From contig CAWDZM010000001.1 in the NCBI GenBank assembly GCA_963807165.1, forward strand, positions 119,963 through 183,962: a stretch of DNA of 64,000 nucleotides, read 5' to 3'. This document shows, piece by piece, positions 432 through 58,225 of the stretch. Origin of the DNA: an uncultured bacterium (GTDB taxonomy: Bacteria; Patescibacteriota; Minisyncoccia; UBA6257; 2-01-FULL-56-20). Position numbers and translations under genes: made by a program. The stretch's first letter is position 1. Every line of letters starts with the position of its first letter. The notes under the pieces are model-generated. The model ran no database searches, was not told the DNA's origin, and was given only the letters and a program-made list of their open reading frames with translations.

Positions 432-555
432 TGTTCTTGGTGTTAGCCCCCGCAAGCGAGGATGCAGAACATTAAATCTGTATTAAAACTTCCCATCTAT
501 ATTACTACAAAAATCAAGGATGACAAAATCGAGCCATATTTAATCATTTTTTAAT

Positions 556-1191
556 GTGAGTGTGCTATCTATATTGGGTATGAATATTCTTAACGAGAAT
601 TTAATAGTAAGAATGTACGTGGAAGATAAACTTTCTGCTATGCAAATTAGCGAATTAACACACCTATCGATTTCAAAGATAGTGCGCATTTTAGAAATAC
701 ATCATATTCAAAAAAGAAGCATAAGCGAGGCCATCACGCAGCTTAATATAACAAAATTTCATAAGGCACCGTTTCAATTGAAGGCAAAACTTTCTTCGGT
801 TGAAAATGATTTGAAAATAACCGGGATAATGTTATATTGGGGCGAGGGAGCAAAGACAAGTGGTTCCGTAAAGCTTGCTAATAGCGATCCTGGAATGGTC
901 AAGGTTTTTCTTCTTTTCTTAAGAAATATTTGCGGAGCCGAAGAGAAAAGAATAAAAATGATCATCCATATGTACCCCGACCAAGATAGAATATTCCTGC
1001 AAAAATTTTGGTCATCGGTGACGGGTATCGGGCCGGAAAATTTTTATAAGCCGCAGATTCTCGCAGGCAAGAAGGGGACTTATAAAAAGAAATCTATTTA
1101 TGGCACCGCCACCATTTATTATGGCGATAAAAAATTACTGAAACAATTGCTAAAATGGATAGACGAATATAAAAATGGATTTTTAGCATAG
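556..1191 (+). CDS. hypothetical HTH-domain protein, member of a 2-copy tRNA-adjacent family (paralog of 57477..58190)
   Basis: 211-aa ORF; HTH-like segment LSAMQISELTHLSISKIV; shares motifs LYWGEGAK / NSDPGMVKVFLLFLR / IHMYPDQDR with the 57477..58190 protein; stop codon lies 2 nt before tRNA-Thr on the same strand. Confidence 0.5.
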   Translation: MSVLSILGMNILNENLIVRMYVEDKLSAMQISELTHLSISKIVRILEIHHIQKRSISEAITQLNITKFHKAPFQLKAKLSSVENDLKITGIMLYWGEGAKTSGSVKLANSDPGMVKVFLLFLRNICGAEEKRIKMIIHMYPDQDRIFLQKFWSSVTGIGPENFYKPQILAGKKGTYKKKSIYGTATIYYGDKKLLKQLLKWIDEYKNGFLA

Positions 1192-1192
1192 T

Positions 1193-1265
1193 GCCACCTT
1201 AGCTCAGCTGGCAGAGCGCTACTTTTGTAAAGTAGATGTCCCCGGTTCGATCCCGGGAGGTGGCT
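1193..1265 (+). tRNA. tRNA-Thr(TGT)
   Basis: Cloverleaf GCCACCT/AGGTGGC acceptor, D-arm AGCTCAGCTGGCAGAGC, anticodon loop TTTGTAA, T-arm CCCGGTTCGATCCCGGG. Confidence 0.85.
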
Positions 1266-1284
1266 CAACTGATATAATAAAACC

Positions 1285-1737: not shown

Positions 1738-2019
1738 GCCGTTGTAGCTCAGCTGGTAGAGCAACTCCATGGTGGACTCACAGAGTCATGCCCACGGAAG
1801 GGGAAACCCTTCTGCGAACCCCGAATTACGGTCAAAGGCCAGGAATGGCAGAGACCGTGGCGAAGATGCGAATAGCGCGTGATTCGCCCGAACGACTGAC
1901 AAGGGACGCTGCGCCGTACAAGCGGTATGCGTAAGATACAGTCTAATCCTCATATAAGCATCGCGAAGGTGAGGTATCAATGAAGGAGTAGGTCGCCGGT
2001 TCAATTCCGGCCAACGGCT
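1738..2019 (+). tRNA. tRNA-Thr(GGT) interrupted by a group I intron (exons 1738..1773 and 1983..2019)
   Basis: Acceptor GCCGTTG/CAACGGC, D-arm GCTCAGCTGGTAGAGC, anticodon stem ACTCC/GGAGT, T-arm GCCGGTTCAATTCCGGC; the anticodon loop ATGGT|AA is split after anticodon position 36 by a 209-nt insert. Confidence 0.6.
1774..1982 (+). ncRNA. group I self-splicing intron (small, ORF-less) in tRNA-Thr(GGT)
   Basis: 5' exon ends in U and the intron ends in G; the intron GUCAUG can pair with exon CAUGGU (P1 with a U-G wobble at the splice site); a GAAA-tetraloop hairpin (P2), an ACGGUC/GACCGU stem (P4), a P7-like GACUG/CAGUC pairing and the core-like string AAGAUACAGUCUAAUCC are all present; 209 nt is the size class of the Azoarcus tRNA-Ile intron. 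Confidence 0.55.
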
Positions 2020-2023
2020 CACT

Positions 2024-2110
2024 CGCAGACAGCAAAAATCCCTATCGCTATTTCGCTCCGACGTAAGCACGTCCACTCGCTCAATAGCAATAGGGATTTT
2101 TGCTGTCTGC
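2024..2110 (+). repeat. long hairpin (28-bp stem) carrying the conserved core TCGCTCCGACGTAAGCACGTCCACTCGCTCAA in its loop; copy 1 of a 4-copy family; terminator-like
   Basis: Inverted repeat cagacagcaaaaatccctatcgctatt / aatagcaatagggatttttgctgtctg; the core is shared with 44722..44800, 51181..51247 and 58842..58897. Confidence 0.7.
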
Positions 2111-2401
2111 TTGTTCGTTGGTAATAAAGAAAGGATGATGCCCCCGCATCGTCAGTGGCGATGCGGGGATTGTGCTATTTATGCAGAAATGGCAAAATCG
2201 CGTTGATGACTGCTCCGAAGAGTGACAGCCAAAAAATAAGCATGCTCATTGATTGGTTTAGTAGTTCATTTTATATGATAAAATCACGACCTTTGATCTT
2301 TTGATTTGGGTGAAGTGTACCAAAACGCCGATTAAAACTATCTAAAAATGTGGCCAGGCCTGGATTTGCAATAATGGCGCGGATATAGTATCATCGTTCC
2401 C

Positions 2402-56843: not shown

Positions 56844-57135
56844 AATAGCTGACGAAGAGCTCCAAGATCGAGCGAATGTGTGAGTTCTATCGGGGGATGA
56901 CTCAAGAGCTTGCACTGGATCAGTTAGACGACATTTTTTCCGGAAAGGAGGTGATATCTAGTGAAGGAAATTTCGGAAACGGAAAAGAAAGTATTGCCGA
57001 AAATGCATGTTGAACCGCGCCCCATGGTGCCAATCAACAACACATGCCGGCAACCAAGCAACTGCCATTAGAAACTAATGGCACTCAACCGGGCCCGAGG
57101 ACAGTGGTATACTGTTCTTGGGCCCTTTTATTCAT

Positions 57136-57420
57136 ATGACAAGCCAGAAAAAGTCTACAATTTTGCAAAATATCGCTGACAAGTATAAACGACAATCGGA
57201 TGTTTTGGGCGTCCTTGTTTTTGGATCGTTCGTGAGGGGAAATTTCGACAAATACTCTGATATTGATGTTTACATACTCCAAAATAAAAAACCTACTTAC
57301 TCCCGCGAAAGCTATATGCTTAATGCCATTCGGGTGGATGTCACGATTGATGGAAAAATATTTGCCGAACAATCTTTAAAAGCCGAAAATCATTCGGTGG
57401 GGGCCAGGGCTCGAACCTGA
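57136..57420 (+). CDS. nucleotidyltransferase-domain (MNT-like) protein; 3' end overlaps tRNA-Gln
   Basis: GVLVFGSFVRGNFDKYSDIDVYIL (the GS-X9-DxD minimal NTase motif); stop codon lies inside the antisense tRNA. Confidence 0.5.
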   Translation: MTSQKKSTILQNIADKYKRQSDVLGVLVFGSFVRGNFDKYSDIDVYILQNKKPTYSRESYMLNAIRVDVTIDGKIFAEQSLKAENHSVGARART

Positions 57421-57468
57421 ACTCTTCTGCTTCAAAGGCAGACGTGTTACCGATTACACCACCCCCCA
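57396..57468 (-). tRNA. tRNA-Gln(TTG)
   Basis: Reverse complement TGGGGGGTGGTGTAATCGGTAACACGTCTGCCTTTGAAGCAGAAGAGTTCAGGTTCGAGCCCTGGCCCCCACC: D-arm GTGT/ACAC, anticodon stem TCTGC/GCAGA with loop CTTTGAA, T-arm TCAGGTTCGAGCCCTGG; the acceptor stem has 1-2 mismatches. Confidence 0.65.
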
Positions 57469-57476
57469 ATAAATGA

Positions 57477-58190
57477 TTAACGAAAAAATTCTACCACGCC
57501 TTGGGTCCATCCGGCAATGCGGCGGTTCAGCGAGATGCTTGATCGCACCCTGATTCGTATGACACCGAAATAAGTATCATCGATATTTTTTCGATTAGTT
57601 TTTATATTAGCTTTTTTGAAATAGATACGAGAAAAATAATCCGGGGCAATTCCAATTTTCTCTGACCAAAAATCGATTATTTGTTTTACGCGATGCCGGT
57701 GGGTATCGTGAATATAGATTTCAAAAATGAGCTCAGTGTTATCGATATAGCAAACATCTTTAAGCCAGCGGAGAAATAAGCAAATCATGGTCGGATCCAT
57801 ATTGGTAAATTGGACTCCCGAGCCCGGGCGATACTCTTTTTCTTTTGATCCTTCTGCCCAATAGAGCATAGTTCCCATAAGCCATAATTCTCGATTGCTT
57901 ATTGGACCGATCTCAGATTTCGCAATATCCATAATTGCTTTTGTTCTATCGAGGCGTTGCTGGTGTTTTGCAGCACCACCACGCTTTGCTGATGCCAGCT
58001 TCTTTTCAGTCAATCGCTGTTTTTGATGTTTTGACAATCCAACGCTATGAAGCCAATCCGATAGTGTTGATTTGGCAATAGGTACCTTTTTTAATATTTC
58101 CGTATATGAGAGCCCATTTTTGCGCAATATAATAGCCTTTTCTTTTATAAGATATGTTTCATATTTAGCGTTGTAGTAGTAAGTATGCAC
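57477..58190 (-). CDS. hypothetical HTH-domain protein, paralog of 556..1191; stop lies 9 nt before the 5' end of tRNA-Gln on the same strand
   Basis: LSYTEILKKVPIAKSTLSDWL (HTH); LYWAEGSK, NMDPTMICLFLRWLK and IYIHDTHRHR are collinear with the other copy. Confidence 0.5.
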   Translation of the reverse strand: MHTYYYNAKYETYLIKEKAIILRKNGLSYTEILKKVPIAKSTLSDWLHSVGLSKHQKQRLTEKKLASAKRGGAAKHQQRLDRTKAIMDIAKSEIGPISNRELWLMGTMLYWAEGSKEKEYRPGSGVQFTNMDPTMICLFLRWLKDVCYIDNTELIFEIYIHDTHRHRVKQIIDFWSEKIGIAPDYFSRIYFKKANIKTNRKNIDDTYFGVIRIRVRSSISLNRRIAGWTQGVVEFFR

Positions 58191-58225
58191 ATCTCACATT
58201 AAAAATATGTTAAAATAATCTTGAC

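What the first reader, a model, noticed from the sequence alone, without database searches (positions are those of the whole stretch)
556..1191. Paralogous HTH proteins encoded immediately 5' of tRNA genes on the same strand (two loci)
The 211-aa protein at 556..1191 ends 2 nt before tRNA-Thr(UGU). Its 237-aa paralog at 57477..58190(-) ends 9 nt before tRNA-Gln(UUG). Both share an N-terminal HTH and collinear motifs (ML-YWxEGxK ... N-DP-M ... FL-WL ... I-I-H). The motif around L-YW-EG-K vaguely recalls a degenerate LAGLIDADG. The NTase gene on the other side of tRNA-Gln reads through the tRNA 3' end, as happens at tRNA-targeted integration sites. This could be a tRNA-linked mobile or homing module, or a dedicated tRNA-operon regulator; I cannot place the family.
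Basis: partly seen in the sequence, partly recalled or inferred. Interest (0 to 1): 0.6.

Follow-up and report, generated by a model that had tools for sequence, protein, structure and literature searches.

The report
tRNA-linked LAGLIDADG-like homing endonuclease genes
Two paralogous genes in this candidate-phyla-radiation (CPR) bacterium belong to a very large, unannotated protein family (a DNA-binding helix-turn-helix domain joined to a homing-endonuclease-like fold) that sits directly against specific tRNA genes in CPR bacteria and inside tRNA clusters of large phages, and that behaves like a selfish gene specialised on tRNA genes.

Summary
ORF A (556..1191, +) stops 1 nt before tRNA-Thr(UGU). 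ORF B (57477..58190, -) stops 7 nt before tRNA-Gln(UUG). The two are paralogs (BLASTP E = 1e-13).

The tRNA linkage is systematic. 82 of 83 B-type loci have tRNA-Gln(UUG) directly 3' of the gene, and in about half the ORF runs 15-16 nt into the tRNA. Six of 7 A-type loci precede tRNA-Thr(UGU). Further subfamilies precede tRNA-Gly(GCC) and tRNA-Ile(UAU). Among distant phage relatives, 34 of 35 loci contain tRNA genes.

B is dispensable and patchily distributed. B-less dnaX-tRNA-Gln loci nest inside B-bearing clades and carry no remnant. Three copies have premature stop codons.

Best reading (about 0.55): a new family of free-standing homing-endonuclease-type genes lodged next to their cognate tRNA gene. 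Nuclease activity and the target site are untested. The main rival is a domesticated, WhiA-like regulator.

The parts
556..1191 (+). ORF A: Thr-type family member (N-terminal HTH, helical linker, LAGLIDADG-like C-terminal domain). The likely true start is ATG 580 (203 aa).
   Evidence: 166 homologs, about 203 aa; homologs abut tRNA-Thr(UGU)
823..855 (+). Codons for G-I-M-L-Y-W-G-E-G-A-K, the LAGLIDADG-like motif of A, with the family-invariant Glu and Lys
   Evidence: sequence; invariant columns
1193..1266 (+). tRNA-Thr(UGU), 1 nt after the stop codon of ORF A
548..560 (+). 13-mer TTTTTAATGTGAG at the start of ORF A, shared exactly with ORF B. Candidate shared promoter or operator element.
   Evidence: only two copies in 64 kb, one at each paralog
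57477..58190 (-). ORF B: Gln-type family member (HTH at residues 8-47, long helix 54-94, LAGLIDADG-like domain 99-236)
57843..57875 (-). Codons for G-T-M-L-Y-W-A-E-G-S-K, the LAGLIDADG-like motif of B (Glu113 and Lys116 invariant)
   Evidence: sequence
58050..58169 (-). Codons for the N-terminal helix-turn-helix of B (residues 8-47)
   Evidence: HTH_23 above the Pfam cut-off in relatives
57396..57469 (-). tRNA-Gln(UUG), 7 nt after the stop codon of ORF B
   Evidence: conserved partner in 82 of 83 homologous loci
58193..58205 (-). Second copy of the 13-mer TTTTTAATGTGAG, 3 nt upstream of the GTG start of ORF B
57488..57517 (-). Promoter-like site TTGCCG-N18-(TG)TAGAAT inside the last codons of ORF B, 18 nt upstream of tRNA-Gln. 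Candidate separate tRNA promoter; this is a consensus match only.
   Evidence: found by a looser TTGNNN-N16-18-TANNNT scan in the nearest relatives (L001, L002, L004, L010, L011, L019 and others) but not in most other loci

Best explanation

The protein has a resolvase/transposase-like helix-turn-helix, a roughly 40-residue helix, and a single LAGLIDADG-like domain. By analogy with single-motif LAGLIDADG enzymes it would act as a homodimer.

Each subfamily is tied to one tRNA gene: B to tRNA-Gln(UUG), A to tRNA-Thr(UGU), others to Gly(GCC) and Ile(UAU), and many different tRNAs in phages. In bacteria the gene lies in the space just 5' of the mature tRNA and often runs into it.

Inferred mechanism:
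1. The protein recognises the conserved tRNA gene in a copy that lacks the insert and cuts it.
2. Repair from an occupied copy carries the gene in.
3. Sitting in the tRNA 5' leader costs the host little, because RNase P trims any leader.

Shown here: the fold-level similarity, the invariant acidic residue, the tRNA linkage, empty and occupied versions of the same site, decayed copies, and phage relatives.

Inferred only: nuclease activity, the target site, homing, co-transcription with the tRNA, and RNase P release.
For: Fold and conserved residues:
- The full model has pLDDT 88.5 and the domain model pLDDT 85.8 with pTM 0.82.
- Glu113-Gly114 at the C-terminal end of the first helix of the domain, and Lys116, are invariant across the Gln, Thr and Gly subfamilies and phage members.
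- Two-module tandem fusions exist, as in monomeric LAGLIDADG enzymes.

tRNA linkage:
- 82 of 83 B loci carry tRNA-Gln(UUG). In 34 of 73 measured loci the ORF overlaps the tRNA by 15-16 nt; the rest have mostly 0-25 nt gaps.
- A type: 6 of 7 loci precede tRNA-Thr(UGU), and the seventh lies 65 nt 3' of it.
- Gly(GCC) and Ile(UAU) subfamilies show the same arrangement.

Phage relatives (22-56% identity over the best matching segment):
- 34 of 35 loci contain tRNA genes and 26 contain three or more.
- Some ORFs are antisense to the tRNAs, so the association is with the DNA.

Dispensable and patchy:
- Of tRNA-Gln loci found through the tRNA alone, 4 carry B and 56 do not.
- Five B-less loci have dnaX ending 12-308 nt before tRNA-Gln. 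Each nests in a different B-bearing clade of a DnaX tree, with up to 77% DnaX identity to a B-bearing locus.
- None of these holds a B remnant.
- Three of 83 copies carry premature TAA or TAG codons.
- B identity tracks DnaX identity less well (rho 0.43) than host genes track each other (rho 0.61-0.69).

Precedent: T4 SegB, a homing endonuclease gene inside a tRNA gene cluster (PMC2330249).
Against: - No sequence profile of any LAGLIDADG family matches, and hhalign against I-CreI is not significant (E = 0.83).
- The predicted strand order has an extra helix relative to the canonical alpha-beta-beta-alpha-beta-beta-alpha core.
- B is unusually well conserved for a selfish gene: mean 49% identity, comparable with DnaX. 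80 of 83 copies are intact, and dnaX-B-tRNA-Gln synteny holds in 42 loci.
- The best structural match, WhiA, is a non-catalytic transcription factor.
- No cleavage site was identified, and nothing explains how the resident tRNA gene would escape cutting.
Confidence: 0.55

Rival explanations
1. Domesticated LAGLIDADG-derived DNA-binding protein, working like WhiA. It no longer cuts DNA. It binds a palindromic operator on its own promoter and so regulates itself and the co-transcribed tRNA gene. This is partly compatible with the main reading, because a homing endonuclease can also repress its own promoter, as I recall for I-TevI (from my own knowledge; no paper was read for this).
For: - An inverted repeat of 9 bp or more ends at the start codon in 32 of 76 B loci, against 2.9% of shuffles. 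A -10-like box lies in its loop in 27 of those 32.
- Read by eye from the sequences, loci such as L030 and L051 have hexamers TTGATT-N18-TATAAT and TTGTAT-N17-TATAAT, which would put one repeat arm in the promoter spacer and the other after +1.
- B is as conserved as DnaX and mostly intact. Its identity correlates with DnaX identity (rho 0.43, p = 2e-23).
- The two window paralogs share an exact 13-mer at their starts.
Against: - The acidic residue that WhiA has lost (per my recollection of WhiA, not checked here) is invariant in this family.
- The gene is absent from close relatives with the same synteny, and those loci hold no remnant.
- Copies with nonsense mutations exist.
- Phage relatives sit among many different tRNAs, some antisense. 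A dedicated regulator for each tRNA is hard to motivate in minimal genomes.
- The inner bases of the repeat arms vary between loci while staying complementary, whereas the HTH recognition helix is nearly invariant. That does not fit simple sequence readout.
Confidence: 0.25
2. RNA-level helper. The protein binds the tRNA precursor it is transcribed with, in the way LAGLIDADG maturases bind introns, and aids its folding, processing or modification.
For: - In bacteria the ORF is almost always on the same strand and abuts or overlaps the tRNA 5' end, so the mRNA and the tRNA precursor would be one molecule.
- Each subfamily goes with one tRNA identity.
Against: - Several phage members are antisense, divergent or convergent to the neighbouring tRNAs.
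- In one A-type locus the tRNA lies upstream of the ORF.
- Lineages without B have ordinary tRNA-Gln genes.
- The N-terminal domain is a DNA-type HTH_23/HTH_7.
Confidence: 0.08
3. Remnant of a tRNA-targeted integrative island, or an ordinary transcription factor that lies next to tRNA genes by chance.
For: - The NTase ORF overlaps the tRNA-Gln 3' end by 25 nt.
- HTH-only matches in Pfam, NCBIfam and PHROGs.
Against: - The tRNA 3' ends are not repeated in the window, and no integrase is nearby.
- The genes downstream of the tRNA differ between homologous loci.
- The linkage holds in about 100 independent loci, which excludes chance.
Confidence: 0.02

Closest known systems
Single-motif, homodimeric LAGLIDADG homing endonucleases (I-CreI, I-CeuI, I-MsoI type)
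   Same: - One alpha/beta domain whose first helix ends in an acidic residue followed by Gly.
- Two-module fusions exist alongside single-module forms.
- Patchy presence and absence at one genomic site.
   Different: - No sequence-profile match.
- An added N-terminal HTH and a roughly 40-residue helix.
- An extra helix between the third and fourth strands in the model.
- Free-standing next to tRNA genes rather than inside a group I intron or intein.
- Activity untested.
WhiA (DUF199), a LAGLIDADG-derived transcription factor
   Same: - Combines a LAGLIDADG-type fold with an HTH.
   Different: From my own knowledge, not checked here: WhiA has two degenerate LAGLIDADG domains followed by a C-terminal HTH and lacks the catalytic acidic residues. 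This family has one domain, an N-terminal HTH and an invariant Glu. No Pfam WhiA model matches. WhiA is not known to be tRNA-linked.
Phage T4 SegB, a free-standing homing endonuclease encoded in a phage tRNA gene region
   Same: A free-standing endonuclease gene inside a tRNA gene cluster that promotes inheritance of that region (PMC2330249). The phage relatives of this family occupy the same kind of place.
   Different: SegB is homologous to GIY-YIG homing endonucleases (PMC2330249), which is not the LAGLIDADG-like fold seen here. The present family is also chromosomal in bacteria, with one subfamily per tRNA and the ORF fused to the tRNA 5' end.
Endonuclease genes inside group I introns of tRNA genes (reported for Patescibacteria tRNA-Asn and cyanobacterial tRNA-Arg and tRNA-fMet)
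   Same: A selfish endonuclease gene that uses a tRNA gene as its home, where RNA processing keeps the tRNA functional (PMC13011429).
   Different: There is no intron here. The tRNAs next to A and B are uninterrupted. The ORF is in the 5' flank, so RNase P rather than self-splicing would have to remove it (inference). That paper reports HNH-type genes in Patescibacteria tRNA introns, not this family.
I-TevI acting as repressor of its own promoter
   Same: A possible parallel for the inverted repeat around the -10-like box of B-type genes: an endonuclease that also binds an operator on its own promoter (from my own knowledge; no paper was read for this).
   Different: GIY-YIG enzyme, intron-encoded. 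Operator binding has not been tested for this family.

Membership tests
LAGLIDADG homing endonucleases | Alpha/beta core with an N-terminal interface helix packed on an antiparallel sheet | tested here: met
   [not shown]
LAGLIDADG homing endonucleases | Motif helix ending in a conserved acidic residue followed by Gly (the metal-binding residue) | tested here: met
   L-Y-W-(A/G)-E-G-x-K lies at the C-terminal end of helix 99-117. Glu and Gly are invariant in 33 B/A sequences and across the Gly-type and phage members.
LAGLIDADG homing endonucleases | Match to the family's sequence profiles (Pfam LAGLIDADG_1, _2, _3) | tested here: not met
   No such hit even at E up to 10. A profile search of PDB sequences found nothing. 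hhalign against I-CreI gave E = 0.83, although Glu113 pairs with Asp20 in that alignment.
LAGLIDADG homing endonucleases | Site-specific double-strand cleavage of a long target | not testable with these tools
   Needs purified protein and empty-site DNA.
LAGLIDADG homing endonucleases | Mobile-element behaviour: occupied and empty alleles of the same site, plus decay | tested here: met
   dnaX-B-tRNA-Gln in 42 loci against dnaX-tRNA-Gln in 5 loci that nest among them and hold no remnant. Three copies have nonsense mutations. This evidence is indirect; gain was not told apart from loss.
WhiA family | Two degenerate LAGLIDADG domains plus a C-terminal HTH, with catalytic residues lost (definition from my own knowledge, not checked here) | tested here: not met
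   One domain, an N-terminal HTH and an invariant Glu. No Pfam WhiA hit.
Free-standing phage homing endonucleases of tRNA gene regions (SegB type) | Gene located within a tRNA gene cluster | tested here: met
   34 of 35 phage loci contain tRNA genes and 26 contain three or more.
Free-standing phage homing endonucleases of tRNA gene regions (SegB type) | GIY-YIG catalytic domain | tested here: not met
   No GIY-YIG family among the Pfam hits; the few weak PHROG matches (two annotated 'HNH endonuclease') cover only the N-terminal HTH region. The fold is LAGLIDADG-like.
tRNA-targeted integrative elements | Integrase gene and a direct repeat of the tRNA 3' end at the far boundary | tested here: not met
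   No repeat of either tRNA 3' end in 64 kb. The ORFs lie 5' of the tRNA. Downstream genes are not conserved.

The most novel reading that the evidence does not exclude
A previously unrecognised superfamily, at least 5,800 clusters at 50% identity, of active tRNA-gene-specific LAGLIDADG-type homing endonucleases. It uses the 5' leader of a tRNA precursor as a safe harbour, with RNase P doing for it what self-splicing does for intron-borne endonuclease genes. It has radiated into subfamilies that each recognise a different tRNA gene, in CPR bacteria, other bacteria and jumbo phages. If so, it is a natural library of long-site nucleases aimed at the most conserved genes there are.
Probability: 0.4. 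Interest if true: 0.75.

Novelty: new variant of a known kind. Interest (0 to 1): 0.66.

Why it matters
If the proteins are active nucleases, this adds a large, unannotated branch to the LAGLIDADG world. It has a new architecture (HTH plus a single core domain) and a new lifestyle: free-standing, fused to the 5' edge of a specific tRNA gene, in bacterial chromosomes as well as phage tRNA arrays.

It would explain a recurrent 'hypothetical protein' in CPR genomes and many unexplained ORFs in phage tRNA clusters. It suggests a route for horizontal exchange and co-conversion of tRNA genes among CPR bacteria. It would also offer a set of natural long-site nucleases with predictable targets.

If the proteins turn out to be domesticated regulators, they would be a second, independent WhiA-like case of endonuclease domestication. 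Either outcome can be tested directly with one protein and two DNA fragments.

Tried and rejected
- Sequence-family searches found only weak HTH or chance matches for the window proteins: Pfam, NCBIfam, PHROGs and PADLOC, and PDB sequences by phmmer and by profile.
- hhalign of the C-terminal-domain profile against I-CreI was not significant.
- Foldseek against afdb50 was not available.
It was rerun without them.
- Direct repeats of the tRNA 3' ends, as island boundaries: none found.
- B remnants in B-less loci by tblastn at E up to 1: none found.
- A generic inverted-repeat score on upstream regions did not separate real from shuffled AT-rich sequence. A version anchored on the start codon did.
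- I considered that B might be a core housekeeping gene, because it is as conserved as DnaX and syntenic with it. The empty sites and nonsense alleles made me downgrade this.
- I considered that in phages the ORF always lies on the 5' side of a tRNA. The counts did not bear this out: 19 loci flank a 5' side, 11 contact only a 3' side, and 5 have no tRNA within 150 nt.
- The literature searches found no description of this family.

Full report
**Observation**

The window holds ORF A at 556..1191 (+) and ORF B at 57477..58190 (-). ARAGORN and Rfam place tRNA-Thr(UGU) at 1193..1266 (+) and tRNA-Gln(UUG) at 57396..57469 (-).

The two proteins are paralogs: BLASTP E = 1e-13, 28% identity over 145 residues. 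The database gene model for A starts at ATG 580 and gives 203 aa (P0121). B has no in-frame ATG near its start, so the GTG at 58190 stands.

**What the protein is**

No Pfam, NCBIfam, PHROG or PADLOC model reaches significance on either window protein. Only weak N-terminal HTH matches appear. Sequence searches of the PDB, including one with a 33-sequence profile, find nothing.

An AlphaFold2 model of B built on 33 sequences is confident, with pLDDT 88.5. It shows:
- a three-helix HTH at residues 8-47;
- one long helix at residues 54-94;
- an alpha/beta domain at residues 99-236, whose first helix ends in L-Y-W-A-E-G-S-K.

A model of the C-terminal domain alone (pLDDT 85.8, pTM 0.82) gives the same list: WhiA 6.6 and 6.2, I-CeuI 6.2, intein endonuclease 6.1, E-DreI and I-DmoI 5.7, I-Tsp061I 5.6, I-CreI 4.3.

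The motif supports the assignment. Gly106, Tyr110, Trp111, Glu113, Gly114 and Lys116 are invariant in the B/A alignment. They stay invariant when the Gly-type and seven phage members are added. hhalign against I-CreI is not significant (E = 0.83), although it pairs Glu113 with the catalytic Asp20.

In relatives the HTH passes Pfam's own cut-off for HTH_23, and in two of them also HTH_7.

**Size of the family**

- B retrieves 936 clusters at 90% identity. All are unnamed or 'hypothetical', and they come from many CPR lineages.
- A retrieves 166 clusters.
- A Gly-type paralog retrieves 54.
- A profile search of 1.84 billion cluster representatives finds 5,805 clusters at 50% identity with E <= 1e-3, and 3,611 with E <= 1e-10.
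- Some members from GC-rich organisms are tandem fusions of two complete modules (P0249, P0265, P0270, P0280). This matches the known split of LAGLIDADG enzymes into homodimers and two-domain monomers.

**tRNA linkage**

I fetched 80 B-type loci from species-representative genomes and 3 more by exact look-up.

- 82 of the 83 loci have tRNA-Gln(UUG) immediately downstream on the same strand. The exception (L069) is a contig that ends inside the gene.
- In 34 of 73 measurable loci the ORF overlaps the tRNA by 15-16 nt and stops at the TAA of the D-loop.
- In the other measurable loci the gap is 0-25 nt, with one gap of 76 nt. Five further loci read deeper into the tRNA.

For the A type:
- The window and five other loci have tRNA-Thr(UGU) directly 3'. 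Overlap is 10 nt in four of them and the gap is zero in one.
- In one locus (L219) the tRNA lies 65 nt upstream of the ORF instead.

Other subfamilies:
- A third subfamily precedes and overlaps tRNA-Gly(GCC) (L056, L215, L216).
- A more distant member overlaps tRNA-Ile(UAU) by 15 nt (L217).

Two scans of IMG/VR found 35 distinct loci, mostly on contigs of 70-530 kb.
- These relatives are full-length, with 22-56% identity over the best matching segment.
- 34 of the 35 loci contain tRNA genes, and 26 contain three or more.
- 30 have a tRNA within 150 nt of the ORF.
- 13 show the bacterial arrangement, with the ORF 3' end facing a tRNA 5' end on the same strand. These involve Val, Leu, Cys, His, Lys, Ala and Gly tRNAs.
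- Others are divergent or convergent to the tRNAs.

The association is therefore with tRNA genes as DNA. It is not only a matter of co-transcription.

**Essential host gene or dispensable element?**

At first B looked like a host gene.
- In 42 loci dnaX lies just upstream.
- B identity correlates with DnaX identity (rho 0.43, p = 2e-23).
- B is as conserved as DnaX: mean 48.9% against 45.1%.

I then scanned metagenome contigs with a tRNA-Gln(UUG) pattern that does not depend on B.
- Of the loci with at least 700 nt upstream, 56 lack B. Only four of the 80 listed loci carry it, one of them cut by the contig end.
- Many of the B-less loci are not CPR, but five have dnaX ending 12, 14, 44, 80 or 308 nt before tRNA-Gln (L099, L098, L165, L148, L120).
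- In a DnaX neighbour-joining tree each of these five nests in a different B-bearing clade. L148 is 77% identical to the DnaX of L030, and L098 is 72% identical to that of L035.
- tblastn finds no B remnant in any of them.

Two further points weaken the host-gene reading.
- Three of the 83 B-bearing loci have premature TAA or TAG codons in otherwise well-conserved genes (L037, L041, L075).
- As a control, host genes at the same loci track each other better (rho 0.61-0.69) than B tracks them (rho 0.43, 0.48 and 0.11).

So B is dispensable. It occurs as occupied, empty and decayed versions of one site, and it is only loosely tied to host phylogeny. That is the pattern expected of a homing endonuclease gene. 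The high conservation is still not fully explained.

**Junction anatomy**

In the pair L148 (empty) and L030 (occupied), both have promoter-like hexamers just after dnaX. I read these by eye from the sequences.
- In L148 (TTGATT ... TATATT) they are followed within about 22 nt by the tRNA.
- In L030 (TTGATT-N18-TATAAT) they are followed 15 nt later by the ATG of B, with the tRNA at the far end of B.

In L098 and L099 the dnaX stop codon is only about 12-14 nt from the tRNA. B thus occupies what would otherwise be the tRNA 5' leader or spacer. I infer, without a test, that RNase P makes this position nearly neutral.

In the window's own clade a promoter-like TTGCNG-N18-TAGAAT lies in the last codons of B. 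For the window it is at 57488..57517, 18 nt before the tRNA. This could drive the tRNA separately. It is a consensus match only.

**Extra cis features**

- In 32 of 76 B loci an inverted repeat of 9 bp or more ends at the start codon, against 2.9% of shuffles. A TAnnnT box lies in the loop in 27 of those 32.
- The arms come in two sequence classes, and their inner bases covary between loci.
- The repeat may be an operator for self-repression or a hairpin in read-through RNA. I could not decide between these.
- The window lineage lacks this repeat. Instead A and B share an exact 13-mer, TTTTTAATGTGAG, at their starts. These are the only two copies in 64 kb.

The NTase ORF (Pfam Polbeta/NTP_transf_2) does overlap the tRNA-Gln 3' end by 25 nt. 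Against an integration site:
- neither tRNA 3' end is repeated in the window;
- there is no integrase nearby;
- the genes downstream of the tRNA differ between homologous loci.

**Comparison with what is known**

Free-standing homing endonuclease genes in phage tRNA clusters are established; T4 SegB is the example (PMC2330249). Endonuclease genes inside group I introns of tRNA genes have been surveyed in Patescibacteria, but that work does not mention this family (PMC13011429). Five text searches found no description of it.

I therefore rate it a new variant of a known kind. It shows known selfish-gene logic and a known fold. It differs in four ways:
- the domain architecture is new;
- it is chromosomal in bacteria;
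- it is fused to the 5' edge of a tRNA gene, with one subfamily per tRNA.

**Verdict**

- Best explanation: homing-endonuclease-type gene specialised on tRNA genes (0.55).
- Main rival: domesticated WhiA-like regulator (0.25). The two are not mutually exclusive.
- RNA-level helper: 0.08.
- Island remnant or chance: 0.02.

Nuclease activity, the target site, and how the resident tRNA gene would be protected from cutting are all untested.

Noticed in passing
window 1738..2020 (+): An intron-containing tRNA-Thr(GGU), missed by default ARAGORN and by Rfam. With ARAGORN's intron option on, it is called as tRNA-Thr(ggt) with a 209-nt intron at position 36/37 (sequence). It matches the 'divergent group I intron' class reported for Patescibacteria tRNA-Thr(GGU) in PMC13011429.
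   Followed up: partly
window 2024..2115 (+): A long, near-perfect hairpin just after the intron-containing tRNA-Thr. Only a sub-threshold Rfam match (Plastid-psbA-2, 28.6 bits against a cut-off of 55.8). Possibly a terminator.
   Followed up: no
L005-L083, the 70 nt upstream of B-type start codons (for example L042, L051, L022, L030): An inverted repeat that ends at the start codon and brackets a TATAAT-like box. It reaches 9 bp or more in 32 of 76 loci against 2.9% of shuffles. There are two sequence classes, and the inner bases of the arms covary between loci. Whether it is an operator or an RNA hairpin is undecided.
   Followed up: partly
L020, L024, L030, L031, L034, L047, L052, L054, L077 (upstream of the B start codon): In one clade the 3' arm of that repeat reads (G)TCCTACC(T)ATG. 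This is the complement of the D-arm segment GGTAGGAC of the tRNA-Gln about 700 nt downstream in the same presumed transcript. It could be long-range pairing or chance.
   Followed up: no
window 548..560 (+) and 58193..58205 (-): The exact 13-mer TTTTTAATGTGAG sits at the start of both paralogs and nowhere else in 64 kb. This suggests a shared promoter or operator in this genome.
   Followed up: partly
window 57118..57420 (+): A short nucleotidyltransferase ORF (Pfam Polbeta/NTP_transf_2), convergent with tRNA-Gln and overlapping its 3' end by 25 nt. No partner gene or island boundary was found.
   Followed up: partly
P0249, P0265, P0270, P0280 (no genomic context available): Proteins of 424-576 aa from GC-rich organisms that hold two full HTH plus LAGLIDADG-like modules in tandem. 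P0265 ends in ...GAGIV, like the peptide that arises when an ORF reads into a tRNA-Gly gene (compare L056).
   Followed up: partly
L219 1861..2612: The one A-type locus where tRNA-Thr(UGU) lies 65 nt upstream of the ORF rather than downstream.
   Followed up: no
L098, L099 (metagenome loci): In B-less CPR loci the dnaX stop codon lies only about 12-14 nt before the mature 5' end of tRNA-Gln. The tRNA must then be transcribed with dnaX or from a promoter inside it.
   Followed up: no
L216 3298..4833 (-): A large serine recombinase gene lies immediately downstream of the Gly-type ORF, tRNA-Gly and tRNA-Leu cluster in a Moranbacteria contig. Possibly a separate mobile element at the tRNA 3' side.
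   Followed up: no
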